A stretch of DNA of 20,000 nt, from positions 44,684 to 64,683 of the IMG/VR virus record IMGVR_UViG_3300030060_003974; one strand, 5' to 3'. This document shows, piece after piece, positions 3,001 to 20,000 of this stretch (position 1 is its first letter; every line of letters begins with the position of its first letter). Position numbers and translations under genes: made by a program. The DNA is from an uncultured virus (IMG/VR IMGVR_UViG_3300030060_003974) (lineage: Duplodnaviria; Heunggongvirae; Uroviricota; Caudoviricetes). Under the pieces are notes generated by a model. The model worked only from the letters and a program-made list of their open reading frames with translations, had not been told where the DNA came from and made no database searches.

Positions 3001-4282
3001 GGTAACGTATGTAGGAGATATTGGTGTAGTAAACTGGTTAAAATACGCAGGTATGATGACAGCAAACACTCTAACTTTTGGAAAGTTCGGTAAAGGTTTT
3101 GCGGGAGCTGCAAAAGAAATATTTGCAAACTCACCGTACATGAAAGACAGATACAGTGCAGGATTCCAAAGAACACTAGAGGCTTATGATGGAACAAAAG
3201 AAACAAGATTAGTAGGATCGAGTGGTCAATCGTATCTACAGTTTGTTATGGACTTTAACTTATTTTTCTCAAAGCTGGGTGATGCTGGAGCGATATTCTT
3301 AGGTGGTATTCCTAACTATTTGTACTTTAAAGAACAGGCTCGTAAGACTAACCCTGATGCTACAGAACAAGAAATTATTGATATTGCAATAAAGCAGTTT
3401 CAAAGAAACACTAAAAATACTCAGCAGTCTTCAGACCTTCAAGATAAAGATATTTACCAAATGGGAGGTAGCGCCTTAAGGTATTTAAATATGTTTAAAA
3501 CATCTCCTAAACAATATTTAAGAAACTCTATGTATTCACAGATACAATTAGGTAGAAAAATTGGAGCTGCAACCAAAGCAATATTCCAAGGTAAAAATCC
3601 CTTAACAGCGATGAGTCAAGCAGGAAAAGGAACATTTGCAGAAAACTTAAGAAACTGGTTCTTATACCACGTTACAATGCCTGTTAGTTTCCAGTACGTA
3701 AGTATGGGATTGCCTGGTTTATTAAAGCCAGAGTTTGATGATGAAGATATTAATGATTTAGCTAGAGCTGCTGTATTAGGTAATGTAAATGCTGTATTTA
3801 TTTTAGGTGACTTAATTAAAGCAGCTACAGATTTAACGATAGGAGGAAAAAGATATGGTGAAGATGCAGGTATCAATTTACCTATCTATGAGCTGTATGA
3901 AAACTTTGGTAAAAACTATGTAAAAATGATAACTGTAAAAGACCCTCAATTAAAATATTTCTATGCTGTAAAAGCTTTTGCTGGTATAGGAGACATGGTA
4001 GGTCTTCCAGGATCAAAAGGAGTTCAACTGTTCCATCATTTAGATAAAATAAGTAATGGACGAATAAGTAATAATGAAAAGTTAATGAGAGCTTTAGGAT
4101 TTAGCGAGTATATAGTAAAGCAAAGTTTCCCACAAGAAGAAAAACCACCTGTAGGGTTAACTAACAAAGAAAAAAGAGAGTGGAAAATAAAACAAGAACG
4201 AAAGAAAAGTGGTAAAGGCCCAGTCTTAACTAATAGGGAAAAAAGAGAAAAGAAAATGAGAGAAAAAAAGAAAAGAAAATAA
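2..4282 (+). CDS. Very large phage protein, probably 5'-truncated by the window; putative virion-associated/internal (ejection-type) protein
   Basis: The 1415-aa ORF from 35 has an open frame back to position 2 (ATT GAT AAC TAC ... TTT ATG). It has a helical K/E-rich N-half and a more hydrophobic C-terminal region, and lies on the opposite strand to the replication genes. Function is inferred from size and context only. Confidence 0.6.
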   Translation: MDNYQINERGFMPSTVFDVGRLKREAKEFGYGVRVARYREGYRAGEISGYYLTKGGKFFNPRARYQMIDSNNPIEVVVDARKNKISDAAIKIKLRADGLTTSQIAAALENAELFADISTQVPSAFLILGDKVGRKVYKRVVDFVQKTNIENAKKKYRISDAEMAAIADKKEKALRKKAKLKSPDTIKDEIADFTARMKKKNPKLTQDELNELAVKKANDINRVEEKKLNTVNKAMRKFREDQVKRNNSKPAKLTKAEIIDQAIEVLQTDPAYIDAAGKVEGKSDLQSLMVDQLIVALSTKAALDTNTKVEQAKQRIKKQTKGKVKINTKKDLFYTQTQLINLIKKTIPAAQFNKKQVKDLMAKVRDLVKPGINVEQIFDEVVAEINTINSKILQQEMTGILTKKYESKSGGVTKAKQIIGDVAARIKNILKNSLVEENKNLDLAELDNQVTKKNAQLQDRMNELEAEIKGTPENVEELVNEMADIQLAMMINSTLTLEDSSTAKVQELSAILQNLDELLIDGNTQLKLAKQAQYQAHLENINAAYEAITGEKLDLGIKENIEKAKKKIAETKTQKEQNASKIFLLSRMMSTIASGLSYFRDATSGLSLLMEKIDVLPGELFGGVMQDLVYEKINESSYAFKQFQIDNQKMLEDKAIELFVDPRFLGIKKPSFIKRRQARNALRDMNIPANKKGGLLGRAGRKLRSMFTRAGAKEIYTTFTKGVRRDADGNPIFRDQAAVDQALADYKNATGFFNRLRKKAILRGVMDKNVIDLSDGQTYYLYNQYKDPRNHINFENSPDIGKDHARIMQQLEESMSDELKAWADWQVNELYPFLYTRYNRVFKKLYHTNLNWNRYYAGRLYLDGVERDAVNLTGKPNIYKKDGVTSASMFDRVHHNNAIELANGNDVLSTYLTDMDWFAAYGESINEISKMFGNSVIAGAIKAKEGKFFYDTVIKIIDEIAGRGIQASGANKFINVTNNFFLTTRLALTPILAIKQLLSTVTYVGDIGVVNWLKYAGMMTANTLTFGKFGKGFAGAAKEIFANSPYMKDRYSAGFQRTLEAYDGTKETRLVGSSGQSYLQFVMDFNLFFSKLGDAGAIFLGGIPNYLYFKEQARKTNPDATEQEIIDIAIKQFQRNTKNTQQSSDLQDKDIYQMGGSALRYLNMFKTSPKQYLRNSMYSQIQLGRKIGAATKAIFQGKNPLTAMSQAGKGTFAENLRNWFLYHVTMPVSFQYVSMGLPGLLKPEFDDEDINDLARAAVLGNVNAVFILGDLIKAATDLTIGGKRYGEDAGINLPIYELYENFGKNYVKMITVKDPQLKYFYAVKAFAGIGDMVGLPGSKGVQLFHHLDKISNGRISNNEKLMRALGFSEYIVKQSFPQEEKPPVGLTNKEKREWKIKQERKKSGKGPVLTNREKREKKMREKKKRK

Positions 4283-4530
4283 TGTCACAGTTTGATGAGC
4301 ATAAATGTATGGATCAAAGCTATCAGGTAATTACTGGTAGAAAATCTTTTGAAGACCTTTTAGAAGAAGAGGAAGATGTGGCTCTTATGTTTAATCCTAC
4401 CCGACCAATTATAGTAATGGTAGATGATATCTACGACATACTAATAGATTACTTCGCCTCAATTGAGGAGTATGAAAAATGTCAAGAAATTTTAGATATA
4501 AAAAATTTAGCAAAGGCGATTCAAGAGTGA
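4282..4530 (+). CDS. Small phage protein with UVR (UvrB/C)-like motif
   Basis: ATG overlaps the upstream TAA (TAATG). C-terminal YFASIEEYEKCQEILDIK resembles the UVR motif (E.YE.A..IRD). Confidence 0.6.
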   Translation: MSQFDEHKCMDQSYQVITGRKSFEDLLEEEEDVALMFNPTRPIIVMVDDIYDILIDYFASIEEYEKCQEILDIKNLAKAIQE

Positions 4531-4685
4531 AATATTCTAGGCCTTCTTACTTTGATGAGGTCTATCGAAGCTATTGATCTGTTACGCATATATTGCTCTA
4601 TAGACTTATCAATGTCATCAGTTCTTAATTCTACAGAATCTTTAGTCCCATCTGTCAAAGTATATTTTACTAGGTAAGTTTTCAT
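4521..4685 (-). CDS. Hypothetical protein, 54 aa (MKTYLVKYTLTDGTKDSVELRTDD...), not in ORF track
   Basis: Translated by hand. ATG at 4685 directly follows the stop at 4686; TGA at 4523-4521. It fills the gap up to the convergent + strand gene. Confidence 0.7.
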   Translation of the reverse strand: MKTYLVKYTLTDGTKDSVELRTDDIDKSIEQYMRNRSIASIDLIKVRRPRIFHS

Positions 4686-5777
4686 TTAAAAATAATGTGT
4701 TAGTCTAGCGACTTGACCAGTGGTTTTTTCGTGTATAAAACCCTCGCAAGCTAAAGGTGCGCCAGTGTAACCTTTTCTTGAATGCCAGCTATCTGCTGAA
4801 GAAGGAGATCTCATATACTCTACAGTCACTCCTATAAAATCTTTTCCGTCTCTCCATTTGTGTTTTATTTTATGATGCAAATGATGTAAGTACCAATACC
4901 TATGGGTAGTTAATGCCCAGTCTTTCGGGTTTTCTTGAGCCATTAATAACGGGAGGTTATCCATCTTCGCTCCATCCCCATGCTCTATCCCAAGCAAATT
5001 AGTTCCATAAGAATAATACTTTCGATGAGAAACACTGATGTCAAACTTTACATCTTTAGCTTTTCTAAACCAGCTTTTTAAAGTATGAGCTAAATGAAAA
5101 CCTGATTGGTAATCGTGATTACTCATACTATGAACTACATCTACAGGCCCTATCTTTCTTAACATTTCCACACACTTTACATAAAGCATTAAAGCTATCT
5201 CATAATGCTCCCACCATTTACCATCAGTATCTTGATAAGTTCCTTTAGTAGTAGTAGAGTAAACATTGTCAATATGTAAAATATCGTTTCCTATGCAGAA
5301 TAAAACACGATCTATATCAAACCCTTTAGATTTTTCAATCAACCCTGTAACACCCTCTAAAACTCTTTTAACAGCAGTTTCACAATCATATTTCTGATTT
5401 GTCTCTATCTCGTTTGCATATTTCCCAATATGTACATCAGCAGGGTTTATAACCAACAGGTGTGATCCTTTTTTTCTTTTTATGGTTGGGTAGTCTGGAG
5501 AATAGTCAGCTACAAACTTATTAACTTTAGCAAACAACTGCTGTTCATCTAGCCCGATATTCTCTTTGGTTACAATAGAAAATCTATATTCGCCACTCCC
5601 ACTCTGCCAGTGTTTAACACTTACGACATCCTTTTTATCTATACCTCTTTCATCTAGATGTAGATCAAGAGCTGTGTTGTTGTTTATATTATCTAGATTT
5701 GTGGCTCTTTTTTGTAGAATATAATCTACCTCTTCGTGAGACAGCCTTAGTCTTTTACCGTAATTTTTAGATTTCAT
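4686..5777 (-). CDS. Calcineurin-like metallophosphoesterase (phage nuclease/phosphoesterase)
   Basis: Metal-binding motifs in canonical order: ADVHIG (DxH), GNDILH, SNHD, HGD, HHLHH. Confidence 0.8.
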   Translation of the reverse strand: MKSKNYGKRLRLSHEEVDYILQKRATNLDNINNNTALDLHLDERGIDKKDVVSVKHWQSGSGEYRFSIVTKENIGLDEQQLFAKVNKFVADYSPDYPTIKRKKGSHLLVINPADVHIGKYANEIETNQKYDCETAVKRVLEGVTGLIEKSKGFDIDRVLFCIGNDILHIDNVYSTTTKGTYQDTDGKWWEHYEIALMLYVKCVEMLRKIGPVDVVHSMSNHDYQSGFHLAHTLKSWFRKAKDVKFDISVSHRKYYSYGTNLLGIEHGDGAKMDNLPLLMAQENPKDWALTTHRYWYLHHLHHKIKHKWRDGKDFIGVTVEYMRSPSSADSWHSRKGYTGAPLACEGFIHEKTTGQVARLTHYF

Positions 5778-5958
5778 CAGATAGAGATTGAATTAAGTCA
5801 GCAAGAACTTTAATTAAATTTTGTGCCTTCTTCCTTGCTTCCTCATGCTCTCTATCCATTAAGTCTTCGTAGATATCATTTCCAAAGTCGTGAATACTAT
5901 TAGACACGAAGTTAATGTGGCTAATGGTATTAACGTCATCTCTGGAAACTCTAGACAT
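5767..5958 (-). CDS. Hypothetical protein
   Basis: 63-aa ORF with short overlaps to both co-oriented neighbours. Confidence 0.7.
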   Translation of the reverse strand: MSRVSRDDVNTISHINFVSNSIHDFGNDIYEDLMDREHEEARKKAQNLIKVLADLIQSLSDEI

Positions 5959-6373
5959 TTATTTTTTCTTGGATAGCTTTTATATTATTAGATAGTTCTT
6001 GTACTTGTAAATTTAGTAATTTATTTTGTTTAACCAAATTATTCACGGTGTTTTTAAGTAACACAGGATTTAGCTCAATGTATTCTTGACAGTCCATTTT
6101 CCATACTTGCATGGCTTTAGAATAGTTTCTGTTAAGGTTTTTATCTACTTCAACTTCATTTTTAAAATTTCTTAACGCAGACATTACAGTAACATGATTC
6201 ATACCGAATTGTTTTCCGATGAATTGATAAGTCATTCCTAACTCTTGTCTTAAAATAGCGTAACAAATAGCTCTAGCTTGAATAAATTCTGTTTTACGAC
6301 ATCTTAGAGAAGGATCTACTCCTAATATATCTTTAACTATTCCCTTTAAGGCGTTGGTCTTTGCAATATTCAT
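5951..6373 (-). CDS. DnaA C-terminal-like helix-turn-helix protein
   Basis: ARAICYAILRQELGMTYQFIGKQFGMNHVTVMSA matches the DnaA domain IV pattern (AR..AMYL.R......IG..F.RDHTTV). No AAA+ domain is present. Confidence 0.75.
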   Translation of the reverse strand: MNIAKTNALKGIVKDILGVDPSLRCRKTEFIQARAICYAILRQELGMTYQFIGKQFGMNHVTVMSALRNFKNEVEVDKNLNRNYSKAMQVWKMDCQEYIELNPVLLKNTVNNLVKQNKLLNLQVQELSNNIKAIQEKINV

Positions 6374-6689
6374 TTGATTTTATATATAAATTTAAATTCA
6401 TTAAGTCTAAATATTCATCCATAGAAATTATTTCTATGTCAGAAAGAATTGGGTTGTCTCCTAAAGGTCTTACAAGTTCTAATGCAAAAGCCACTGGCTT
6501 ATTATTATACATAACCAACCCGCCTACTACATAAGAAACTAAGTTACTGCTAGGAATATACCTGAGATTCTTTTCGATAAACTCAGCTATTCTTACACTT
6601 AACGGAAACTCTATGTCTTGTAGGTTTTCAATAAAGAAATCATCTATATCGTACTTCCTAACCTCTGTATATTTCGGTTTTACATCCAT
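6333..6689 (-). CDS. Hypothetical protein
   Basis: 118-aa ORF in a tightly packed operon; start uncertain. Confidence 0.65.
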   Translation of the reverse strand: MDVKPKYTEVRKYDIDDFFIENLQDIEFPLSVRIAEFIEKNLRYIPSSNLVSYVVGGLVMYNNKPVAFALELVRPLGDNPILSDIEIISMDEYLDLMNLNLYIKSNEYCKDQRLKGNS

Positions 6690-6897
6690 GATCTCTAAGT
6701 TGTTTTAATCTAAATTCTTGAAGCCGAGAAACTTTACCACCCGATGTTTTGCATTCACTAAACAAAACATCTGCGTCAGGTGGTATAGCTAATAAATCGG
6801 GAATACCGTTCTTATTAGTCTTAATGAGTTTAATAACAAAATACCCCTCGCTTTCCAACTCTTTTATTCTCTTGCTTTGTATTCTTTGTTCTGTCAT
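6658..6897 (-). CDS. VRR-NUC / PD-(D/E)xK nuclease (Holliday junction resolvase-like)
   Basis: Motifs E..IQ, GIPDLL, FSECKT, S.LQ; adjacent to an SF2 helicase. Confidence 0.85.
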   Translation of the reverse strand: MTEQRIQSKRIKELESEGYFVIKLIKTNKNGIPDLLAIPPDADVLFSECKTSGGKVSRLQEFRLKQLRDHGCKTEIYRG

Positions 6898-6900
6898 TTA

Positions 6901-8148
6901 CTACAAATCTAACAAATCTCTTTTAAAATGATTAAGAGTGTAGTCCTTTTTCTTTAACACAGCCTTGTATATTTTATACTCAATACCACCTTCAGAAAAC
7001 ACCCAATAAATTTTATTATACTTTCTCTCTTTAGTAGTCATCCTATCTCTTGATTGCCAATAAGATGTAGCGCTGAAATCAATATTGTAATAAACTAAAG
7101 CTTCAGCATTACGTAAGCTTATACCTTCCCTACCACTTACAATTTGTAATGCAATATTCTTGTTGGTATGGTCAAAAGTGTAAAGATCAGTACACACACT
7201 ATCTCCAAATATTTTCTTAATAGCATTCAGCTCTTCCTTAAATTTGTAAAATATAGCTATCTTTTTAGTACCAAATTGTTTTCTAATAAAATTAGCTTTA
7301 TTATAATTTAAAACAGTAGAGTTTCCAGACTCAAACTTTACAGTACCTGAATATAATTGATGTAGCTTCATCATAAGTTTTACTGCAGTGTCAGCCAAGA
7401 CAACCTCTTCCTTACCCTCAACAACCAAGTTTTTCTTTAACAACCTAATCACATCAGCAGTGTATTTATCTATAGGAACAGTAAGTATTTCTTCATTAGT
7501 CTTAGTAATGAATCCCGCATCCTTTTGAGAATAATTAATAGTATAGGGTTTCATCTTTCGTAATATTTCCTCTCTACCACGTGAGTAATCATTTACCATT
7601 AAACTGCTCAACTTTTTTTGAAACACATCAACATATCTTTTACAAAAAGAATAAAAGTTTTTATGTTCTGCAAAAGGATTCATAGGTATACCATAAACCT
7701 GATGATACATTTGACTGTAAGACTCAGGAGTAGGTGTACCACTCATTAGAATAACATAAGCGTTACGTGATATACGAAGTAATTCTTTAACATCCTTTGC
7801 TCTTTTACTAGGCTTAGGAAATGCACCCAAACCATGTGCTTCATCTATAATTACTGCATCCCATAAAATCACAGGTAGTTTATGCATAGACTCATAATTA
7901 ATAACGTGTAAATCAAAAGATGGTTTTAATAAATCGTAATCAGCCTCAATGCTTGAGATAGCTTTTTTCTTTGTAAGAAACAAAACCTTTGGGGTTTTTT
8001 GAGAATGATTTAGAATCCTATGACATAAACCCATTGAGGTTAAAGTCTTTCCTGTTCTAACTTCCATAGCTAGATACAGAAACTTATATTTTTGTAACAC
8101 CTGTAACCCTTGTGTTATAATTAACTTTTGATAATCTCTAAATTCCAT
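6901..8148 (-). CDS. Superfamily 2 (SNF2/DEAH-like) helicase
   Basis: Q-motif FRDYQ, Walker A-like MEVRTGKT, DEAH, SGTP, GISL, QSRDR. Start moved to 8148 (MEFRDYQ) to shorten the overlap with the primase. Confidence 0.85.
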   Translation of the reverse strand: MEFRDYQKLIITQGLQVLQKYKFLYLAMEVRTGKTLTSMGLCHRILNHSQKTPKVLFLTKKKAISSIEADYDLLKPSFDLHVINYESMHKLPVILWDAVIIDEAHGLGAFPKPSKRAKDVKELLRISRNAYVILMSGTPTPESYSQMYHQVYGIPMNPFAEHKNFYSFCKRYVDVFQKKLSSLMVNDYSRGREEILRKMKPYTINYSQKDAGFITKTNEEILTVPIDKYTADVIRLLKKNLVVEGKEEVVLADTAVKLMMKLHQLYSGTVKFESGNSTVLNYNKANFIRKQFGTKKIAIFYKFKEELNAIKKIFGDSVCTDLYTFDHTNKNIALQIVSGREGISLRNAEALVYYNIDFSATSYWQSRDRMTTKERKYNKIYWVFSEGGIEYKIYKAVLKKKDYTLNHFKRDLLDL

Positions 8149-12419: not shown

Positions 12420-12821
12420 TTATTTTAATTTAATTAATTTGATTTTGTGTTTTGAGTATCTATTTAAAATACCCTCTCTTCTTGTTTTTAAATTCTGAAT
12501 GTGCTTGTCGTTTTTACGTGTGTTAACCTCAACTTTCATCTTGTTTTCAATCAGATCAAGTTTATGTAAGCAATTATTCATTGCAGTTATAACGCATCCA
12601 CGTTTCCACCCATTATTAAAAAAAACTTCATACTCGGTTTCGGTTAACTCCTGAAAGTAATCTCCACCTTTAGAACAATTAAGTATTTCTATATAGTCGG
12701 TAAACTTTTGCAACTTAACTCCCATATTTAAAAACGACTCTCCTCTACTCATAGTACAATAAATAGAAGATTTGTCTTCCTGTGCTTGTTCAAATATTTC
12801 TTGTAAACTATACTGCTTCAT
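12420..12821 (-). CDS. Hypothetical protein
   Basis: 133-aa ORF in a packed operon. Confidence 0.7.
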   Translation of the reverse strand: MKQYSLQEIFEQAQEDKSSIYCTMSRGESFLNMGVKLQKFTDYIEILNCSKGGDYFQELTETEYEVFFNNGWKRGCVITAMNNCLHKLDLIENKMKVEVNTRKNDKHIQNLKTRREGILNRYSKHKIKLIKLK

Positions 12822-13104
12822 TAATTGATTCTATAATATTTTTATAATCCTTATCGTTATCAATTGTCTGCTTTGCTTTTTTATATCCGTGAATGATGGT
12901 AGTGATGTGAACATCAAGACCAGCTTCAGACATAAATCTTTTTATATAAGCAACACGTATAGGTCTTTCCATGCATAAGTAGTAAAGCATTTGTCTTGCA
13001 TCTACTTTTTCTTGTTTCCTACTTTTGTCAAACATTTCATCTAAACTTAAATGAAACTGTTTTGATATAGCAGTAGCGTAGCTATTAAATATTTCTTTTT
13101 TCAT
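12808..13104 (-). CDS. Second DnaA C-terminal-like HTH protein
   Basis: F.LS..EM..KSR....VDARQMLYYLC and HITTIIHG match the DnaA domain IV pattern. Confidence 0.75.
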   Translation of the reverse strand: MKKEIFNSYATAISKQFHLSLDEMFDKSRKQEKVDARQMLYYLCMERPIRVAYIKRFMSEAGLDVHITTIIHGYKKAKQTIDNDKDYKNIIESINEAV

Positions 13105-13678: not shown

Positions 13679-13710
13679 CAAAACTATATAATTACTTTTG
13701 AATATGCAAG
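13679..13710 (-). promoter_or_regulatory. Bacteroidota-type primary sigma promoter
   Basis: - strand CTTG-N20-TAGTTTTG matches the -33 (T)TTG / -7 TAnnTTTG consensus, upstream of the replication operon. Confidence 0.65.
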
Positions 13711-13840: not shown

Positions 13841-14641
13841 TTATCCAAATATTATTGGTTGATTTCCTTTTCTATCTTTATGACAGTGATACTCAAACAC
13901 TTCTTTAAGTGTCTTCCCATAGTATTCGTTTAAACTATAGCATTCATACCACCCCTCTTCATATGTATCACAAGCATTGGTGTGTTCTGTGCGTAGGTAA
14001 GATACTTCACATAAAAACTTGTACCCCTCTTCATATTCTACTACTTTGGTTTCGTGATTGTATACTCCAGACATTTCTTTAATGACTCCTCTGTCGTTAA
14101 TAGCAAACTCTTTAGAATCATCCCAATGTGGCTCTTCATACTGTCCACCACCAATAAACTCTCCATCTTCATACTCCATCCATCCACCCCATCCTGATTC
14201 CTCTTCATAAAAATAAGAAAATCCTTTAACAAGTTTTGCAAACTCTAAGATTAACTCTTCATCAAGTGGACTCCAAGCAGTAGTAAAGACATAGGTTTTG
14301 GTGTCTTCGTGAAATTCGTTGTCATAGCAACCCCACTTTGTACCCCAATTATCTAACGCCCAAGCATACCAATTATCAACTCCATATTTGGATTTGAATT
14401 TATTAGACATTTCTAAGGTTATCCCTGTGTTCCATATTCTCTCGCCTGACTCTCTTTTCTTCTCTTGATCCTGATATTCCTTTTCAGAAATAATAGTAGC
14501 TGGAGAGCTGGTGTGGTTTAACTCTTTAGGCATTGGATAAAGGTATTCAGCTAAACCTCTTTCTAGTTTTGCAATTTTTTTAAGTAGTTTGCAATCTTCT
14601 TTACTGTCCAATTGAATTGAACAAAAAACGTGATTAGGCAT
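13841..14641 (-). CDS. DUF1281/YubB ferredoxin-like domain protein
   Basis: MPNHV start, NWYAWALDNWGTKWG and FTTAWSP motifs characteristic of this family. Confidence 0.8.
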   Translation of the reverse strand: MPNHVFCSIQLDSKEDCKLLKKIAKLERGLAEYLYPMPKELNHTSSPATIISEKEYQDQEKKRESGERIWNTGITLEMSNKFKSKYGVDNWYAWALDNWGTKWGCYDNEFHEDTKTYVFTTAWSPLDEELILEFAKLVKGFSYFYEEESGWGGWMEYEDGEFIGGGQYEEPHWDDSKEFAINDRGVIKEMSGVYNHETKVVEYEEGYKFLCEVSYLRTEHTNACDTYEEGWYECYSLNEYYGKTLKEVFEYHCHKDRKGNQPIIFG

Positions 14642-14676
14642 AATATTATATTTAAATTAAACTTCGATTCGTTATC

Positions 14677-14721
14677 TACCACGAAAAGCCCGACACATTT
14701 ACGTGCCGAGCTATTCGCAGA
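14677..14721 (-). ncRNA. Unidentified structured RNA motif, copy 2
   Basis: UCUGCGAAU-AGCUCGGCAC-GUAAAU-GUGUCGGGCU-UUUCGUGGUA; aligns with copy 1 at 16931-16977 with compensatory changes. Confidence 0.6.
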
Positions 14722-14732
14722 ACAAACCACAA

Positions 14733-14828
14733 TTATAAACATTTACTCAATACTATCAATATGAATGTTATTACTACTCCTAAAAAAGAATAGAATGTTG
14801 CTTTTGCTTTATCTTCGTATTTACTCAT
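14733..14828 (-). CDS. Small membrane protein, 31 aa (MSKYEDKAKATFYSFLGVVITFILIVLSKCL), not in ORF track
   Basis: Translated by hand; overlaps the upstream stop by 8 nt; single hydrophobic segment. Confidence 0.6.
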   Translation of the reverse strand: MSKYEDKAKATFYSFLGVVITFILIVLSKCL

Positions 14829-15162
14829 CTTCTTGCATTTTATCTGCGTACTTACACGCAGAGTTATAAATATTTCTATCGTACTCTTGTACAAAGTCAA
14901 CAAAGTAATTCATCCATTCGTACAGTCCTGTATTCATAAAGCTATCCATCTCTCTTACTTCAATATCATCCTCATACTTCAATCCATTGATAGAATTTAC
15001 AACATACTTGTCAGGTGCGATTAAGTCGCACAATTGTTGGATTTGACATACATCATCTTCTGCCTCCCAACCTTTACCAAATTGTAAGTCAGCAATTTTT
15101 TCTAAATTGTTTGCCGACACAAAACTATATGTAGACATATAGCGTTCAGTTTTTATTCTCAT
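14821..15162 (-). CDS. Hypothetical protein
   Basis: 113-aa ORF with an A/U-rich AAUUAUG start context. Confidence 0.75.
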   Translation of the reverse strand: MRIKTERYMSTYSFVSANNLEKIADLQFGKGWEAEDDVCQIQQLCDLIAPDKYVVNSINGLKYEDDIEVREMDSFMNTGLYEWMNYFVDFVQEYDRNIYNSACKYADKMQEDE

Positions 15163-15173
15163 AATTTTAAATT

Positions 15174-15359
15174 TTAATAGTTGTCCATTCCTAAAAAGAG
15201 GGTGATGCTTGAATCACCCCCATCCTCCCACACTTCTATAATGTCGAGGATGTTGTCTCTATCAGGAATATTTGCTTTAGTTAAGTTCGCCACAGGCAGA
15301 ATCTCAGCATCCTGAAATTCACAATCCTGTAGCATTTTTACTAGTTCTTTTACTTTCAT
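15174..15359 (-). CDS. Hypothetical protein
   Basis: 61-aa ORF, MKVKELVKML start typical of small phage proteins; ATGA overlap with the upstream gene. Confidence 0.75.
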   Translation of the reverse strand: MKVKELVKMLQDCEFQDAEILPVANLTKANIPDRDNILDIIEVWEDGGDSSITLFLGMDNY

Positions 15360-15535
15360 AATTTTAAATGTTTAGGGTCGTAATTTTTACCATCTTGATA
15401 TTCGAGGATTGCATAAACATCTGCTTTGTTATCATAAGCAAACTTCATTGCCTCTTTTTTAGTTTCAAATTCATAGTCATTCTCTATGTAATCTCCACTC
15501 TCTGTGTACTCTCGTAATTCTACTATATAATTCAT
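15356..15535 (-). CDS. Hypothetical protein
   Basis: ORF track start is 15541; ATG at 15535 is preferred because it gives the same 19-nt post-cleavage leader as three other ribozyme copies. Confidence 0.7.
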   Translation of the reverse strand: MNYIVELREYTESGDYIENDYEFETKKEAMKFAYDNKADVYAILEYQDGKNYDPKHLKL

Positions 15536-15548
15536 ATTCATATGTTTT

Positions 15549-15646
15549 GGTTAATAAGGAAGATGATACGACATATAATCATCTATTACATTGTTGGTTT
15601 CTCCTAACAACAACCTTTTCGGATATTGAATCCTCATCAGTTAACC
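15549..15646 (-). ncRNA. Hammerhead ribozyme type I (HH7), UUA cleavage triplet, branched stem III
   Basis: GGUUAA-CUGAUGA-GGAU-UCAAU-AUCC-GAAA-AGG-[54-nt insert]-CCU-UA-UUAACC; predicted cut between 15555 and 15554. Confidence 0.85.
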
Positions 15647-16296
15647 TCTATTGATTTAATTATTTCCTCGCATAGCTGAGGTGGTATCTTGCTTCTCTCG
15701 TGATTACCTTTTAGTCCCTGTGTACCTGTTTGGCTTCCTCTTGGTGCTGGTGTATGACACGAGTCCCCATTCTTACACATTGGTCGTGGAGTCCATCCCA
15801 TATCGTTAGTCCAAATGTCAGTAGGTTTCATTCTTGAGTCGCCATATTGACAATAGGTAACAGTTTCTCTTCTGTGTTTCATATCCTCCCAATGAGGTGC
15901 TTTTCTCATTTTACCTCTTGGGTTTTCTACGTACCACAATAGCTTTGGATTCTTGTCTAGATAATCAGAAATGATTCCTAATGTTTTCTCGAAGATTTTT
16001 AAGCCGATCATCTCAGGATCACGAGGGGTAAAATTCTCTCCTGACACCCATTTCTTACCTATACAGGCAACAGAAAAATCAGTACAGGGTGGAGATGCCC
16101 AAATGACATCAGGAATCCACAACTCATCTAACTCTCCTACATTCATTTCATTCATACGATAGTCCCAATCCATAATATCGCCCACCCAATTTGTATTGGG
16201 ATAAGCTACATTATCAACAGAGAATACCTCGTGACCACGTTGCTCGGCAACTTTGCCTACACTACGTGAACCACTAAATAGTTCTAGTATTTTCAT
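15637..16296 (-). CDS. DNA (cytosine-5) methyltransferase
   Basis: Motif I ILELFSGS, catalytic motif IV WASPPC, motif VI VENP, YCQYG..RMKPT.IW. Confidence 0.88.
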   Translation of the reverse strand: MKILELFSGSRSVGKVAEQRGHEVFSVDNVAYPNTNWVGDIMDWDYRMNEMNVGELDELWIPDVIWASPPCTDFSVACIGKKWVSGENFTPRDPEMIGLKIFEKTLGIISDYLDKNPKLLWYVENPRGKMRKAPHWEDMKHRRETVTYCQYGDSRMKPTDIWTNDMGWTPRPMCKNGDSCHTPAPRGSQTGTQGLKGNHERSKIPPQLCEEIIKSIEVN

Positions 16297-16309
16297 AATT
16301 GTTGGTTTT

Positions 16310-16389
16310 GATTAAGACACAAGAGTAATAAGCTACCANNNNNNNNNNCACCTCTTGTGTTTCGGACATCAAGTCCTCATCAGTTAATC
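16310..16389 (-). ncRNA. Hammerhead ribozyme type I (HH6)
   Basis: GAUUAA-CUGAUGA-GGAC-UUGAU-GUCC-GAAA-CACAAGAG-[loop containing N gap]-CUCUUGUG-UC-UUAAUC; predicted GUC cut between 16316 and 16315. Confidence 0.9.
16339..16348. other. Assembly gap (10 N)
   Basis: Run of n inside the stem III loop of HH6. Confidence 1.
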
Positions 16390-16626
16390 TGTTTTGTATT
16401 TATCAACTAAATTTTCTAATGCATATATGTATTTAAATATATGGTCGCTTTTGTTTAGTTCATCTTGATACGCTTGGCTAAAAACGTATATCTCTTCTGC
16501 ATCTAACTCTACTGACAAATGGCGTTCATTAAAATCAGTGAATTCAGGCTCATATATATACTCTAAAATTTTGTTAGATAAATGAATCATTTGTTCCTCT
16601 TGAAAAGGAGTAAGTTTGTTTTTCAT
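16384..16626 (-). CDS. Hypothetical protein
   Basis: 80-aa ORF; its TAA forms the end of the HH6 stem I 5' strand. Confidence 0.75.
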   Translation of the reverse strand: MKNKLTPFQEEQMIHLSNKILEYIYEPEFTDFNERHLSVELDAEEIYVFSQAYQDELNKSDHIFKYIYALENLVDKYKTD

Positions 16627-16907
16627 AATTTAATTGTTTTATATTCATCTAGATATTTGTCCCACAAAACGCTACCTGTTCTAATTAAATGTTTATTCGT
16701 TTCTGATAATCCATCAATCGAAAATCCATCTACAGACAGGATAAAGTTTGTGTCTTTGGTTTTGTATTCTTTCATAATCAATTTGATACAGTAAGATACA
16801 TAATCTAAATCTAATTCTCTGTCATAAGGTACTATGTCAATGAAATCAGATTTTCCAAATCCAGAATCTATTTGAATGTTATTATTACTATTAATTTTTT
16901 CTTTCAT
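16623..16907 (-). CDS. Hypothetical protein
   Basis: 94-aa ORF with the shared ACUAUCAAAUUAUG leader. Confidence 0.75.
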   Translation of the reverse strand: MKEKINSNNNIQIDSGFGKSDFIDIVPYDRELDLDYVSYCIKLIMKEYKTKDTNFILSVDGFSIDGLSETNKHLIRTGSVLWDKYLDEYKTIKL

Positions 16908-16930
16908 AATTTGATAGTGTTATTGGTTTG

Positions 16931-16977
16931 TACCACCAAAACCCCAACACGTTTTACTGTGTTGAGGTAAGGGCAGA
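16931..16977 (-). ncRNA. Unidentified structured RNA motif, copy 1
   Basis: UCUGCCCUU-ACCUCAACAC-AGUAAAAC-GUGUUGGGGU-UUUGGUGGUA, flanked by GUUUGU/ACAAAC (16988-16983 with 16931-16926). Confidence 0.6.
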
Positions 16978-16992
16978 TAATCACAAACTAAA

Positions 16993-17238
16993 TCAGGATG
17001 CGTTTAAGGGCGATTCTATATTGTACTCGCCATCCATAATAATTGCATCAATAATTTCTTCTTCATAATTGTATAGGACATCAGTGACATCATCTCCATT
17101 GAGAATCATTTTATCTATTGTAATCTCCTCAATAGGTGGGGAATCATAACTTCCTGACTCAACGTAGTGTTCGTAATAAACTTCTACTACATTGTTTTCG
17201 GACAGTTCCCAATCGAATTGTAATTTAGTAGCTTTCAT
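16993..17238 (-). CDS. Hypothetical acidic protein
   Basis: 81-aa D/E-rich ORF containing G.YD.PP. Confidence 0.75.
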   Translation of the reverse strand: MKATKLQFDWELSENNVVEVYYEHYVESGSYDSPPIEEITIDKMILNGDDVTDVLYNYEEEIIDAIIMDGEYNIESPLNAS

Positions 17239-17240
17239 AA

Positions 17241-17495
17241 TTATAATGTTGGTATTGTTTCATAACCTTTGATTGTAGTGAACAACGCACCACCATCATT
17301 ACCCTCATCATCCATAGATGAATAGAGCCAAAACTTCTCGCCTTTTTTGTTTTCCATTAACATACATAAAGGAGATTTGTACCACATCATGTCTTCTACT
17401 ACTTCTTCAGACATATACTCGACTTTAATTATCTTACATCCTAAAAGATGTTTCTTTGCTAAATCAGTCCAACGTGTTTCTGTGTTTGTATTCAT
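17241..17495 (-). CDS. Hypothetical phage protein
   Basis: 84-aa ORF with C-terminal SMDDEGNDGGALFT; follows HH5. Confidence 0.75.
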   Translation of the reverse strand: MNTNTETRWTDLAKKHLLGCKIIKVEYMSEEVVEDMMWYKSPLCMLMENKKGEKFWLYSSMDDEGNDGGALFTTIKGYETIPTL

Positions 17496-17516
17496 TTTTG
17501 ATAGTATTATAGGTTT

Positions 17517-17571
17517 GTAAATGACACCTACATTGTAGGTGTTTCGGATATTTAATCCTCATCAGATTTAC
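17517..17571 (-). ncRNA. Hammerhead ribozyme type I (HH5)
   Basis: GUAAAU-CUGAUGA-GGAU-UAAAU-AUCC-GAAA-CACCUAC-AAU-GUAGGUG-UC-AUUUAC; predicted GUC cut between 17523 and 17522. Confidence 0.93.
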
Positions 17572-17722
17572 TTTCTCTTAGATTTTCTCTTGCGATTGCA
17601 TTCTCTTTTGCTCGACAATATACACTGTAGTGATTTTCACGTACATAATCCATAAAGTCAGTATAAAAAAGAATATCATCTTCTAAATTTAAGAGGTCTG
17701 TTGTCCATAGTTTTGTTTTCAT
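17552..17722 (-). CDS. Hypothetical protein, 56 aa (MKTKLWTTDLLNLEDD...RESKSDED), not in ORF track
   Basis: Translated by hand; ATGA overlap with the upstream gene. Its last codons read through the HH5 core and it stops in loop II. Confidence 0.65.
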   Translation of the reverse strand: MKTKLWTTDLLNLEDDILFYTDFMDYVRENHYSVYCRAKENAIARENLRESKSDED

Positions 17723-18132
17723 TTCTTAAAGGTTTTAATAAAGTTATTTACTGTATCATCAAATTTAATTTGATAATCATAATCTCGCATTTGTATACGA
17801 ATTTTGTTGTCACTATTTGCATAAACAAAATATGTATATTCTTCCCAACAGTCATTGCTATTAGGTAGATTAACATAAATATTTCCACGTGGATTATCGT
17901 TTTTTAACGCACATAATGTTAGAGCAGTTAACTCTTCCATCCCATTGGCGTATTTCACTGAGGCAGATGCTTCATTATGAATAACTCCATTGGTCAACGT
18001 AAATTGTTGCAGAATCTCTGCTAATTCAACTCCGTGTGCATCAGGATAACCATCATAGTGTCTATACATAGTTAATAAAGTAGAAGAACCTCTTCCACCA
18101 TTTTCGAAATGTGTTAAACTTCGTGTTCCCAT
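17719..18132 (-). CDS. Conserved hypothetical phage protein (MGTRS...HYDGYP...EYTY type)
   Basis: 137-aa ORF with a motif set seen in many small phage proteins; function unknown. Confidence 0.8.
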   Translation of the reverse strand: MGTRSLTHFENGGRGSSTLLTMYRHYDGYPDAHGVELAEILQQFTLTNGVIHNEASASVKYANGMEELTALTLCALKNDNPRGNIYVNLPNSNDCWEEYTYFVYANSDNKIRIQMRDYDYQIKFDDTVNNFIKTFKK

Positions 18133-18150
18133 AATTGATAGTTTTTATGT

Positions 18151-18209
18151 ATTATAAGACACCTGTGTTTGACAGGCGTTTCGGATTTTAAATCCTCATC
18201 AGTTATAAT
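18151..18209 (-). ncRNA. Hammerhead ribozyme type I (HH4)
   Basis: AUUAUAA-CUGAUGA-GGAU-UUAAA-AUCC-GAAA-CGCCUGU-CAAAC-ACAGGUG-UC-UUAUAAU. A G-U wobble in stem III pairs only on the - strand. Predicted cut between 18158 and 18157. Confidence 0.93.
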
Positions 18210-18517
18210 TGAAATTGTCTAAGAAAATATCTGTACAGGTTTTTGACTCCTACTATTCTATTCTTCCACTGAGCATCTTGTGTTTTGTAAGTTCTAGTGG
18301 TTGTGTCATAGAAGACATTTCCTGAACAATACCATTGATGAAAATGGTATCTTCTAAGATTAGATTTATTCGGTTTACCTTTTAAATCGTATTCAGCGAT
18401 TTTATCTTCAGTTAATTTATCTTTAACCTCTTGTAAACTCCACTTGTATCCATCCTCTTCAAAAAACTCTTGATAGAATCGAAGAAACTTGATACTGTAA
18501 TTGAATTGATTGTACAT
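18203..18517 (-). CDS. Hypothetical protein
   Basis: 104-aa ORF flanked by HH3 and HH4. Confidence 0.75.
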   Translation of the reverse strand: MYNQFNYSIKFLRFYQEFFEEDGYKWSLQEVKDKLTEDKIAEYDLKGKPNKSNLRRYHFHQWYCSGNVFYDTTTRTYKTQDAQWKNRIVGVKNLYRYFLRQFQL

Positions 18518-18530
18518 AATTGATAGTTTT

Positions 18531-18586
18531 GATTAGGACACCTGTTCGCACAGGTGTTTCGGATACTGAATCCTCATCAGCTAATC
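18531..18586 (-). ncRNA. Hammerhead ribozyme type I (HH3)
   Basis: GAUUAG-CUGAUGA-GGAU-UCAGU-AUCC-GAAA-CACCUGU-GCGA-ACAGGUG-UC-CUAAUC; GNRA tetraloop on stem III; predicted cut between 18537 and 18536. Confidence 0.95.
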
Positions 18587-18702
18587 TCAATGTAGAAAAT
18601 CCACATTCCAACATAAAATATCAACCCTAGAAAAACTAGGAAGAATAATTCATAGAAGAAATTGATTGGGTCTTCTTTGATAGATTTAAAAAATTCTCTC
18701 AT
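18577..18702 (-). CDS. Small membrane protein, 41 aa (MREFFKSIKEDPINFFYELFFLVFLGLIFYVGMWIFYIEIS), not in ORF track
   Basis: Translated by hand; one strongly hydrophobic segment. Its TGA stop is the first UGA of the HH3 CUGAUGA core. Confidence 0.7.
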   Translation of the reverse strand: MREFFKSIKEDPINFFYELFFLVFLGLIFYVGMWIFYIEIS

Positions 18703-18720
18703 AATTAATTGTTTTAGTTA

Positions 18721-19113
18721 TTAAAATTTGATTGTCCCTTTACTGTTAACCTCATTGTAATGAGAATCCTTAAACTCTTCTACAAGGAATTCTCTATCTT
18801 CATCACTCAAGATGTTATGCCAGATGAATTCAAACTTCCTGTCGTGAATCGTATCGTGATAGTGATGATGCTCATACAATTTGTCATATCGTTCAACCTC
18901 TCTTTTATGTCTAGCTTCAACTGTCTCTACACGTTGCAGTGCTTCATCCAATTGAATCTGTCTATTTTTGGCTAAACTTGTCCATTGTAAAAGTCCATAG
19001 AGCATCTCAATTTTTGAGGTTTTAAGTGCCTCTTGGACATCTTCCTCAGTATGCTGAGGAAAGTGTCTTAAGAGCATCTCTTTGTCAATAATAATATCAG
19101 TATTTATTTTCAT
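18721..19113 (-). CDS. Hypothetical protein
   Basis: 130-aa ORF; ATGA overlap with the upstream gene. Confidence 0.75.
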   Translation of the reverse strand: MKINTDIIIDKEMLLRHFPQHTEEDVQEALKTSKIEMLYGLLQWTSLAKNRQIQLDEALQRVETVEARHKREVERYDKLYEHHHYHDTIHDRKFEFIWHNILSDEDREFLVEEFKDSHYNEVNSKGTIKF

Positions 19114-19358
19114 AATTTGTTAATTAGATTCAGTGCTTTTTTAATTGTTTTCGCAGTATATTGTGCGTTCTGAAAGTGGAAATAATCTTCGCCAATATTG
19201 GCTAGAAATTCTAGATTCCATTTAACAACATCTAAAGCATTTTTAGAATCGGTTCTTGTGTAACCCTTACTGCACTTTGCAGTAGGTTTTGATGTGTTGA
19301 TGACTGTGCTTTTAGACACTAAATCTTCACACATCTTAAAATACTCATTGTAATTCAT
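19110..19358 (-). CDS. Hypothetical protein
   Basis: 82-aa ORF following HH2. Confidence 0.75.
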   Translation of the reverse strand: MNYNEYFKMCEDLVSKSTVINTSKPTAKCSKGYTRTDSKNALDVVKWNLEFLANIGEDYFHFQNAQYTAKTIKKALNLINKL

Positions 19359-19371
19359 ATTTGATAGTTTT

Positions 19372-19475
19372 GATTAAGACACCTCAGGTCAAAATAGCCA
19401 AATCTGTGATCAGATTTTCGGTCATTTTAACCTGTAAAATAGGTGTTTCGGATAATAAATCCTCATCAGTTAATC
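19372..19475 (-). ncRNA. Hammerhead ribozyme type I (HH2) with long stem III extension
   Basis: GAUUAA-CUGAUGA-GGAU-UUAUU-AUCC-GAAA-CACCU-[56-nt hairpin insert]-AGGUG-UC-UUAAUC; predicted cut between 19378 and 19377. Confidence 0.92.
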
Positions 19476-19877
19476 TTCATCTTCATCTTCATCATCATCT
19501 TCGATTTCAATGTCCCAAGCATCACAAATATCTCGTTTGAGATAGTCGTCATCCTCCCATCTTTCAGCAACCATATTGAAGATATCTTCATCCATATAGA
19601 TTTTGTTATCTTCTTCAAAGTTATATGCGTATGAATTTTTCATAAACGCATCACAGATTGCCTCCAGTAGATTGTCATCATAGTAGTACACATCTTCAAG
19701 TATGCTTGTTTTACCACTCATATCATCAGTAAAAATATAGACATCATAACTGTCTGCAGTTTCCTGTGAATGAATCATATAATCTAGCCCACTAAAATCA
19801 TTATCTGTAATTTCTAATGGAAGATGTTCGTTAACAAATTGCTTGAATGTTAGTACATTTAACTCGTAAGTTTTCAT
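19470..19877 (-). CDS. Highly acidic hypothetical protein
   Basis: 135-aa D/E-rich ORF ending EIEDDDEDEDED, flanked by HH1 and HH2. Confidence 0.8.
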   Translation of the reverse strand: MKTYELNVLTFKQFVNEHLPLEITDNDFSGLDYMIHSQETADSYDVYIFTDDMSGKTSILEDVYYYDDNLLEAICDAFMKNSYAYNFEEDNKIYMDEDIFNMVAERWEDDDYLKRDICDAWDIEIEDDDEDEDED

Positions 19878-19899
19878 AATTTGATAGTTTATTGTGATT

Positions 19900-19955
19900 A
19901 TTATAAGACACCTCTTTCAAGGTGTTTCGGATTTTGAATCCTCATCAGTTATAAT
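19900..19955 (-). ncRNA. Hammerhead ribozyme type I (HH1)
   Basis: AUUAUAA-CUGAUGA-GGAU-UCAAA-AUCC-GAAA-CACCU-UGAAAG-AGGUG-UC-UUAUAAU; predicted GUC cut between 19907 and 19906. Confidence 0.95.
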
Positions 19956-20000
19956 GGTTAAGCATTGTTAATCGCACCCTCATAAGAGGTTAGATTATTA

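What the first reader, a model, noticed from the sequence alone, without database searches (positions are those of the whole stretch)
14677..16977. Second, unidentified covarying RNA motif in two spacers that lack a hammerhead
Seen in sequence (- strand): copy 1 (16977-16931) UCUGCCCUU ACCUCAACAC AGUAAAAC GUGUUGGGGU UUUGGUGGUA; copy 2 (14721-14677) UCUGCGAAU AGCUCGGCAC GUAAAU GUGUCGGGCU UUUCGUGGUA. Both have a 10-bp stem with a U-G pair at position 4, a GUAAA-containing loop and conserved UCUGC and GUGGUA flanks. Paired changes are C-G to G-C, A-U to G-C and A-U to G-U in the stem, and C-G to G-C in the outer CUGC(S)/(S)GUGG helix. Both sit between a stop and the next start, like the hammerheads, and copy 1 precedes the same ACUAUCAAAUUAUG leader. 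Inference: another processing element (unrecognised self-cleaving RNA or RNase III-type site) or a weak terminator. I cannot match it to a ribozyme class I know.
Basis: partly seen in the sequence, partly recalled or inferred. Interest (0 to 1): 0.7.

Follow-up and report, generated by a model that had tools for sequence, protein, structure and literature searches.

The report
Phage hairpin swapping places with hammerheads
The two hairpins are real copies of an apparently undescribed RNA element, common in phages of Flavobacteria-like hosts, that sits just before genes, sometimes where related phages have a self-cutting hammerhead ribozyme, and most likely marks a spot where a host enzyme cuts the message, although no cut has been shown.

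Summary
Both copies exist exactly as described, and chance does not explain them. They belong to a large family with no Rfam match: 125 distinct hairpins, 120 from viral or metagenome contigs. The shared core is a strongly covarying ~10-bp stem, a 4-nt U-rich linker and an N-G-Y-R-G-U-R tail at fixed spacing. A same-strand, Shine-Dalgarno-less start follows within 80 nt in 121 of 125.

Five gene clusters follow a hammerhead in some phages and this element in others. It also stands in tandem before consecutive early genes and after major capsid genes. Best reading (0.5): a protein-cut mRNA processing site, probably host RNase III, analogous to T7 R1.1, with a predicted nick at UUUUS^GUGGUA. Main rival (0.22): a leaky terminator or pause like T7 TE. 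A new ribozyme is unlikely (0.07). No RNA end data cover it. The scan earlier noted a similar kind of element in soil Bacteroidota phages (e1-6066947; same family not tested).

The parts
16926..16988 (-). Copy 1. Lower helix 16988-16983/16931-16926; P2 16976-16972/16937-16933; 10-bp stem 16968-16959/16950-16941; loop 16958-16951; U linker 16940-16938; tail GUGGUA 16936-16931
   Evidence: R1 69.6 bits, R2 53.9 bits; this copy was in both training sets
16936..16937 (-). Predicted (not shown) nick in copy 1, between S and GUGGUA; would leave a 29-nt leader before the ATG at 16907
   Evidence: inference from the T7 R1.1 register; coordinates
14666..14728 (-). Copy 2. Lower helix 14728-14721/14673-14666; P2 14720-14716/14683-14679; 10-bp stem 14712-14703/14696-14687; loop 14702-14697; U linker 14686-14684; tail GUGGUA 14682-14677
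   Evidence: R1 59.8 bits, R2 47.2 bits; in both training sets
14682..14683 (-). Predicted (not shown) nick in copy 2; would leave a 41-nt leader before the ATG at 14641
   Evidence: same inference as for copy 1; coordinates
16623..16907 (-). 94-aa ORF downstream of copy 1, no family
13841..14641 (-). 266-aa ORF downstream of copy 2 (phrog_20518/12644; weak DUF1281_C below cut-off)
16993..17238 (-). 81-aa ORF upstream of copy 1
14733..14903 (-). Short ORF upstream of copy 2 (stop ends at 14733, about 20 nt before the stem)
15555..19948 (-). Seven type-I minimal hammerheads of the same operon. CUGA at 19948, 19469, 18580, 18202, 17565, 16383, 15640; predicted cuts after 19907, 19378, 18537, 18158, 17523, 16316, 15555; leaders 13-29 nt to the first ATG
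   Evidence: one weak RAGATH-1-hammerhead hit, E 1.4, below gathering
13679..13709 (-). Bacteroidota-type promoter-like site (TTG ... TAnnTTTG; consensus recalled), the first two-box match downstream of the early gene array

Best explanation
The element is an mRNA processing signal cut by a host protein, most likely RNase III, and is the functional analogue of the T7 early R-sites. Shown: it is a transcribed-strand hairpin with a near-perfect ~10-bp upper stem, a 4-nt linker, a tail at fixed distance that pairs irregularly with the upstream flank, and a Shine-Dalgarno-less start shortly downstream. Inferred: the enzyme measures along the upper stem and nicks the 3' strand at UUUUS^GUGGUA (window 16937|16936 and 14683|14682). 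That leaves the upstream cistron capped by a protective 3' hairpin and releases the next cistron with a short, unstructured A-rich leader, the same product the hammerheads make by themselves. Cleavage itself and the identity of the enzyme are not shown.
For: (1) Slot exchange: of 110 clusters of downstream proteins, 5 follow a hammerhead in some phages and the motif in others. Three of them are hammerhead-led genes of this window: the DNA methylase, the 84-aa gene and the 137-aa gene. (2) Leaders match: 18-32 nt for 38 of 41 hammerheads; mode 20 nt (range 7-54) for 158 motif copies with the predicted nick. (3) Arrays: in L414 three consecutive genes each carry a copy, the first in a long 5' leader; G006 has 4 copies in 1.5 kb. 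Stacked terminators there would throttle the operon. (4) The U4 run is not required. Of 25 copies that match none of the three forcing patterns checked, 15 lack UUUU (one, L688, looks like chance); 11 keep three U and 3 real ones keep two or fewer. (5) The tail pairs with its own upstream flank better than with shuffled or swapped flanks: mean -7.18 vs -5.34 (sd 0.22) and -6.07 (sd 0.16) kcal/mol, n=125. In 65 other hairpins the figures are -4.4 vs -4.05. Pairing reaches tail positions 8-10, past where a terminator would release. (6) The register fits T7: the R1.1 cut is at nt 5887 (PMC8708148 passage) and needs an 11-bp helix (PMC1540722 passages). The family majority shares A-U at pair 9, U.G at 12, C-G at 13 and U-A at 16 with most of the five T7 hairpins, and non-canonical pairs are common at pair 7 as in T7. 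(7) 5 of 5 genomes tested from the presumed host order encode RNase III; the phage does not.
Against: No RNA end data: the four metatranscriptome contig sets do not cover copy 2 and copy 1 was outside the stretch laid. The stem base is a generic terminator stem: 27 of 38 U4-followed hairpins with the same stem lack the tail, and T7 terminator TE shares five consecutive pairs with the family, so stem likeness to T7 R-sites does not discriminate. Pairs 9-13 were also fixed by my search patterns. The lower helix is complete (5 of 5 pairs) in only 27 of 125 (cross-swap mean 16.4, max 26) and 56% paired at a fixed register, so many members fall short of the two helical turns typical of substrates. 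RNase III does not explain the unpaired A-N-A-A after GGU. The lower half-site carries G-C where the E. coli enzyme has antideterminants (inference from PMC1540722). Host 16S leader-trailer helices resemble the stem base in 1 of 4 genomes. Members are related, so the shuffle z-values overstate significance. Slot exchange can also arise from recombination at shared leaders whatever the function.
Confidence: 0.5

Rival explanations
1. A leaky intrinsic terminator or strong pause, like T7 TE, that steps expression down along an operon. Release would be about 7 nt past the stem (UUUUSGU|G).
For: GC-rich 10-bp stem followed by UUUU in most members. The same stem ends ordinary long-U hairpins in unrelated phages, and T7 TE has the same C-G, U.G, C-G, A-U, C-G pairs and a short U run. 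19 of 125 members lie 19-24 nt after what looks like a capsid gene end; 12 of the 13 longest upstream ORFs hit the major head family phrog_10, a classic attenuator slot (own knowledge). G-11 G-10/Y-1 G+1 pause geometry holds in 112 of 125 vs 10 of 65 other hairpins, and B. fragilis RNAP obeys the consensus pause (PMC11685472 passage).
Against: Only 5 U in the first 8 nt in 98 of 125. UUUU is missing in 15 of 25 unforced copies, with linkers such as CAGU, CAUA and UUGC. Tandem copies stand before consecutive early genes. There is no host-type promoter box between either window copy and its next start, and no NusG-family antiterminator in the phage. Three of the four pause positions were fixed by my patterns. 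Termination does not explain the near-universal downstream start (121 of 125 vs 25 of 65).
Confidence: 0.22
2. A 3'-stabilising hairpin plus a site for a single-strand-specific nuclease (host RNase E/G- or Y-like, or phage-encoded) that reads the G-U-A-N-A-A tail at a fixed distance from the stem.
For: Tail spacing is fixed and A13/A14 are about 90% conserved and mostly unpaired. The lower helix is optional. The element is almost confined to phage-like contigs, as expected for a phage factor.
Against: It occurs in two very different phage gene contexts (early arrays and HK97-type capsid operons), so one shared phage nuclease is less likely; I did not search for one. B. subtilis RNase Y has only a weak consensus (PMC11780869 passages). 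The specificity of Bacteroidota nucleases was not found in the literature search.
Confidence: 0.12
3. An unrecognised small self-cleaving ribozyme.
For: It shares and swaps slots with hammerheads. Hammerhead cores lie within 1.5 kb in 10 of 111 family loci vs 1 of 54 others. This guilt-by-association logic found twister sister, pistol and hatchet (PMC6765202 passages).
Against: No Rfam ribozyme match. Loop, internal loop and 5' flank are all variable, I saw no loop-tail complement that would give a pseudoknot (inspection, not a formal search), and only about four tail bases approach invariance, too few for any known catalytic core.
Confidence: 0.07
4. A DNA-level signal: an extended -10-like promoter (TG-G-TANAA), an ops-like recruitment site, an operator for the phage's DnaA-domain-IV proteins, or a cassette recombination site.
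For: The tail resembles TGnTATAAT, and the GGTAG of RfaH ops (5'-GCGGTAGC in PMC11685472). The phage encodes two Bac_DnaA_C proteins. The element is repeated in a modular gene array.
Against: The position equivalent to the -7 T is T in 4%. No sigma70_r2, NusG or tyrosine integrase match in the phage. GTGGTA occurs 42 times across the genome without clustering. G.U pairs and strand-asymmetric folding point to RNA.
Confidence: 0.06

Closest known systems
T7 early-mRNA RNase III sites (R1.1; the labels R0.3, R0.5, R1, R1.3 are recalled)
   Same: Repeated intergenic hairpins in a polycistronic early transcript, each before a start. About 10-bp upper stem with U.G then C-G in the same positions, and an internal loop on the 3' side where R1.1 is nicked.
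   Different: C-G rather than G-C at pairs 10-11; a G-rich tail instead of T7's GAUU/GAUA; an irregular, optional lower helix; a Shine-Dalgarno-less host; also found after capsid genes. Neither model hits T7, so this is analogy, not homology.
T7 terminator TE and short-U intrinsic terminators
   Same: Stem pairs C-G, U.G, C-G, A-U, C-G; short U run followed by G/C.
   Different: U run dispensable in some copies; tail pairs back to the 5' flank; tandem copies inside an early operon; nearly always tied to a downstream start.
Bacterial/phage hammerheads (RAGATH-1-hammerhead RF03152) and ribozyme-associated motifs
   Same: Same slot, same genes, similar leader length.
   Different: No catalytic core; no Rfam match.
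Flavo-1 RNA (RF01705)
   Same: Hairpin motif of Bacteroidetes (table row and supplement excerpts of PMC2864571).
   Different: Different sequence and fold in the excerpts seen; the RF01705 search of the phage gives one sub-cut-off hit elsewhere and none at the copies.
RfaH ops / Bacteroides opsX pause sites
   Same: GGTA core; pause hairpin with consensus pause geometry.
   Different: No GCG..AGC non-template hairpin; GGTA lies 3' of the putative pause; no NusG paralogue in the phage.

Membership tests
RNase III substrate, T7 R1.1 type | About 11-bp helix between cut and loop | tested here: met
   Pairs 9-17 formed in nearly all of 125; pairs 7-8 are U.U, A-U or C.U, like C.U at pair 7 in three T7 hairpins (requirement from PMC1540722). 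The cut position is assumed by analogy.
RNase III substrate, T7 R1.1 type | About two helical turns in all | tested here: inconclusive
   Met by the window copies with their lower helices; across the family the lower helix is irregular (27 of 125 complete; 56% paired at a fixed register).
RNase III substrate, T7 R1.1 type | No G-C antideterminant at proximal-box positions 2 and 4 | tested here: inconclusive
   Upper half-site: A-U at pair 9 in 111 of 125 and no G-C at pair 7. The lower half-site is G-C rich. The rules are for the E. coli enzyme.
RNase III substrate, T7 R1.1 type | Enzyme present in host | tested here: met
   5 of 5 genomes of the presumed host order; the host itself is inferred, not known.
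RNase III substrate, T7 R1.1 type | rnc-dependent cleavage | not testable with these tools
   No raw RNA reads; contigs do not cover the site.
Intrinsic terminator | GC-rich stem of 7-10 bp | tested here: met
   98.9% of cells paired, 0 of 500 shuffles as high.
Intrinsic terminator | 7-8-nt U-rich tract after the stem | tested here: not met
   5 U of 8 in 98 of 125; UUUU absent in 15 of 25 unforced copies; not listed by the terminator scan. Weak terminators such as T7 TE also have a short tract.
Intrinsic terminator | RNA 3' ends at the U run | not testable with these tools
Known self-cleaving ribozyme classes | Match to an Rfam ribozyme model | tested here: not met
Known self-cleaving ribozyme classes | Invariant catalytic nucleotides in loops or junctions | tested here: not met
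   Loops and 5' internal loop vary.
Known self-cleaving ribozyme classes | Protein-free cleavage | not testable with these tools
   needs a bench assay
Flavo-1 (RF01705) | Model score at or above 42 bits | tested here: not met
   No hit at the copies; none in 20 loci carrying the motif or its pattern.
Sigma-70 extended -10 promoter | T at the last position of the hexamer | tested here: not met
   4% T
RfaH ops / opsX | GCG..AGC non-template hairpin and a cognate NusG paralogue | tested here: not met

The most novel reading that the evidence does not exclude
The hairpin-N4-NGYRGUR element is a phage-restricted cleavage module whose tail is read sequence-specifically, either by the RNA itself (a new minimal self-cleaving ribozyme) or by a nuclease activity not yet described in Bacteroidota or their phages. 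It would be exchanged with hammerheads as a plug-in gene-cassette border.
Probability: 0.15. Interest if true: 0.9.

Novelty: new variant of a known kind. Interest (0 to 1): 0.56.

Why it matters
What self-cleaving ribozymes do near phage genes is described as largely elusive, with polycistron processing only suggested (PMC6765202 passages). Here the same genes follow a hammerhead in one phage and this hairpin in another. If the hairpin is cut by a host nuclease, that is direct evidence that the purpose is to cut the early message into short-leader cistrons for Shine-Dalgarno-less Bacteroidota ribosomes, and that ribozyme and protein-cut sites are alternative parts for one job. It also gives more than 100 natural variants and a predicted cut site for defining RNase III specificity in Bacteroidota, and a new RNA family for annotation. 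If it is only a leaky terminator, it is a modest but still undescribed phage terminator family.

Tried and rejected
Rfam: nothing credible at either copy, in 20 further loci, or at gathering level in two sets of 7 loci (the only hit was DUF805b on a different hairpin). Twister, hairpin, HDV, pistol and hatchet were considered from recall only and dropped for lack of any core.

The loose TCTGC..GTGGTAG scan gave one new homologue among 112 loci, showing that UCUGC is a poor handle. Cultured relatives and look-alikes (Elemovirus NC_055853 whole; 26 kb of MW202828; 40 kb of PP540027) show no copy. blastn of one copy against GenBank phages found nothing. Host chromosomes: 13 pattern matches in 301 genomes vs 20 for the reversed-pattern control, none family-like by eye; not found in those searched.

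RNA runs: the best share of words was 0.06, and the contigs miss the element; no evidence either way. Host 16S leader-trailer helices and rnc leaders were inconclusive. A second mini-hairpin GGU-ANAA-RMC in the tail pairs too inconsistently. Promoter, ops, DnaA-box and integron readings: see rivals.

Literature searches found no description of the motif; one search looked for five spellings of the core in full texts and found 0 papers. The library lacks most subscription journals, and the supplement of the 224-motif paper (PMC5737381) could not be read, so an unpublished or non-Rfam listing there is not excluded.
Full report
Setting. The window is the last 20 kb of a 64,683-nt single-contig virus record. 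Gene content and the best cultured matches of its primase, Flavobacterium phages of the genus Elemovirus at 40% identity over the first 299 residues, point to a podovirus of Flavobacteria; the host is inferred. Positions 20000 to 13690 on the - strand are an array of small genes. A Bacteroidota-type promoter-like site (consensus recalled) lies at the other end of the contig, near C1 1250, ahead of a similar stretch, and the next two-box match is at window 13709-13679. Single -7-like boxes occur inside genes at 19623, 17767 and 15127, but none lies between a motif copy and its next start. Seven type-I hammerheads stand in this array and two more at the contig start.

Observation. Both copies are as described. 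They fold with z -4.1 and -7.1, better on the coding strand, and each extends into a further lower helix, giving an imperfect hairpin of more than 20 pairs. A descriptor written from them finds two sites in the window and none in 300 shuffles. Rfam has no credible match.

Homologues. Pattern and neighbour searches gave close copies first, then divergent ones with other stems and 5' flanks such as CUACC, CCGCC, CCUAG and CCCAA. It did so too in metagenomes: 121 loci, 102 distinct, 62 paired. In 185,579 GTDB genomes it gave only 26 loci, 25 distinct, 5 paired. In 301 genomes of the presumed host order a looser pattern gave 13 matches against 20 for the reversed control. The working set is 125 distinct hairpins (126 less one with a short flank), 120 of them seen only in viral or metagenome contigs. 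Most were found with patterns that fix ACCUC, GGGGUUUU and GGUA, so conservation of those letters in this set is not evidence.

What is really conserved. Two checks avoid that bias. (a) A stem-only scan (120 loci, 89 distinct) shows that the stem is generic: 38 are followed by four U, and 27 of these lack the tail, many with long U tracts. But 11 carry GGUA at exactly the family spacing, where about 0.3 would be expected at uniform base frequencies. All 11 have a start within 50 nt, against 9 of 21 without the tail. (b) Among 25 copies that match none of the three forcing patterns checked, the linker is UUUU in 10, has three U in 11 and two or fewer in 4 (one of these, L688, looks like chance; L450 has four U in a shifted register). 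The tail reads Y-R-G-U-R, a form my descriptor required. The upper stem covaries strongly: in 47 diverse members 98.9% of cells pair, the three free pairs show 20-28 double changes each, and 0 of 500 shuffles reach that. The lower helix is weaker: 56% paired at a fixed register and complete in 27 of 125 (swap control mean 16.4, max 26). Own flanks still stabilise more than shuffled or swapped ones (-7.18 vs -5.34 and -6.07 kcal/mol), an effect not seen in 65 other hairpins. Members are related, so these controls overstate significance. UCUGC and the GUAAA loop are local features.

Context. 121 of 125 have a same-strand ORF start within 80 nt (25 of 65 for other hairpins). None of the 121 has a Shine-Dalgarno-like word; A stands at -3 in 85, at -12 in 98 and at -13 in 88. 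103 follow a same-strand stop, mostly at 19-26 nt. Two settings recur. In early arrays, copies stand before consecutive genes, including the first gene after a long leader (L414), with four copies in 1.5 kb in G006. In structural operons, 19 of 125 follow a capsid-like C-terminus at 19-24 nt, and 12 of the 13 longest upstream ORFs (of 20 scanned) hit the major head family phrog_10. Clustering the proteins downstream of 158 motif copies and 41 hammerheads gave 110 clusters: 87 motif only, 18 hammerhead only, 5 both. Three of the five are hammerhead-led genes of this window. Hammerhead leaders are 18-32 nt in 38 of 41; motif leaders counted from GUGGUA peak at 20 nt.

Mechanism. Shown: structure, covariation, spacing, context and exchange with hammerheads. 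Inferred: a cut. T7 R1.1 is nicked at nt 5887 (PMC8708148, passages) and needs an 11-bp helix (PMC1540722, passages and figure legends). Aligning the T7 hairpins of locus L278 on that register puts the family's A-U, U.G, C-G and U-A pairs where most T7 hairpins have them, and the nick at UUUUS^GUGGUA. E. coli in vivo double-cut sites prefer G-C between the cuts (PMC6212723, section 27); one of the two positions here is G or C in 75%. The phage has no RNase III match and the five host-order genomes tested all have one.

Against this: T7 TE shares five consecutive pairs too, the lower helix is often short, the unpaired A-N-A-A is unexplained, and host 16S stalks resemble the stem base in only 1 of 4 genomes. 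The terminator reading has real support: the capsid slot, and pause geometry in 112 of 125, mostly forced by my patterns (PMC11685472 passages). It fails on copies without a U run, on tandem copies in early operons and on the tie to a downstream start. I put protein-catalysed processing, probably RNase III, at 0.5; leaky terminator or pause 0.22; single-strand nuclease plus stabiliser 0.12; ribozyme 0.07; DNA signal 0.06. Processing and partial termination are not exclusive. Public RNA contigs do not cover the site.

Comparison and novelty. It works like T7's early R-sites by inference, but is not a homologue: neither model hits T7. It is not Flavo-1, ops or a sigma-70 promoter by the tests listed. 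No Rfam family and no paper in ten searches describes it; the supplement of PMC5737381 was unreadable and may bear on that. Papers seen: PMC1540722 passages and figure legends part 1; PMC2864571 passages and supplement excerpts; PMC11685472, PMC6765202, PMC8782170, PMC11780869, PMC8708148 and PMC5737381 passages; PMC6212723 passages and section 27; all others as search listings only. I saw it after forming my reading, did not test whether it is the same family, and do not count it as support.

Verdict. A real, widespread, apparently undescribed phage RNA element; a new variant of a known kind; mechanism likely but unproven. Interest 0.56.

Noticed in passing
window 19948, 19469, 18580, 18202, 17565, 16383, 15640 (- strand); contig C1 662 and 340: Nine minimal type-I hammerheads with short stems I and II whose CUGA often overlaps a stop codon; none reaches an Rfam gathering score in the window (one hit at E 1.4). 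Several carry large inserts in stem III: a long hairpin at 19469 and a two-hairpin junction at 15640, which cuts at UUA rather than GUC.
   Followed up: partly
window 16339-16348: A 10-N gap lies inside the stem III loop of the 16383 hammerhead. Relatives L001, L002 and L004 show the loop filled, ending in GYUGGUAGA, like the motif tail; in L008 the same methylase gene is preceded by the motif instead.
   Followed up: partly
contig C1 1-340 vs window 19650-19950: The contig starts with a diverged second copy of the 19948 hammerhead and the 135-aa gene start, suggesting terminal redundancy or a two-strain assembly.
   Followed up: no
L010 1964, L012 3355, L013 3692, L014 1827, L015 3538, L016 2680, L017 4252, L022 4676, L024 5278, L027 4814, L051 4238: Hammerhead cores in more distant phages where the stem III strand seems to run straight into CUGAUGA with no evident stem I.
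   Followed up: no
L260, L261, L262, L264, L266, about 150 nt upstream of the 266-aa orthologue: A different conserved structured element fills the slot of copy 2 in these phages; no Rfam hit at gathering level in L260, L261 or L266.
   Followed up: partly
L026 about 800-7000, repeated; L026 3742-3776: A short GGCUCG-loop-CGAGCC hairpin is repeated before many early genes, and a DUF805b RNA (39 bits, above cut-off) lies next to a motif copy.
   Followed up: partly
window 12808-13104 and 5951-6373 (- strand): Two stand-alone Bac_DnaA_C helix-turn-helix proteins; no cluster of DnaA-box-like sites was found.
   Followed up: partly
window about 19018-19090: A long hairpin (about -27 kcal/mol in a 70-nt window) inside the 130-aa ORF 18721-19113.
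   Followed up: no
L535, L540, L548 (Rhodobacterales chromosomes), L532 (Saprospiraceae MAG): Rare cellular hairpins matching the stem and tail pattern; the Rhodobacterales ones lack the A-rich leader.
   Followed up: partly
L716/L720 (G276) 16S leader-trailer helix: The helix contains ACCUC/GAGGU, the motif's stem base with U-A in place of U.G; not seen in three other genomes.
   Followed up: partly
L573, L249, L466, L431, L580, L619 directly after the tail: Some members have a small second hairpin right after GGUA (GAGG..CCUC or GGC..GCC) that could protect a new 5' end.
   Followed up: no
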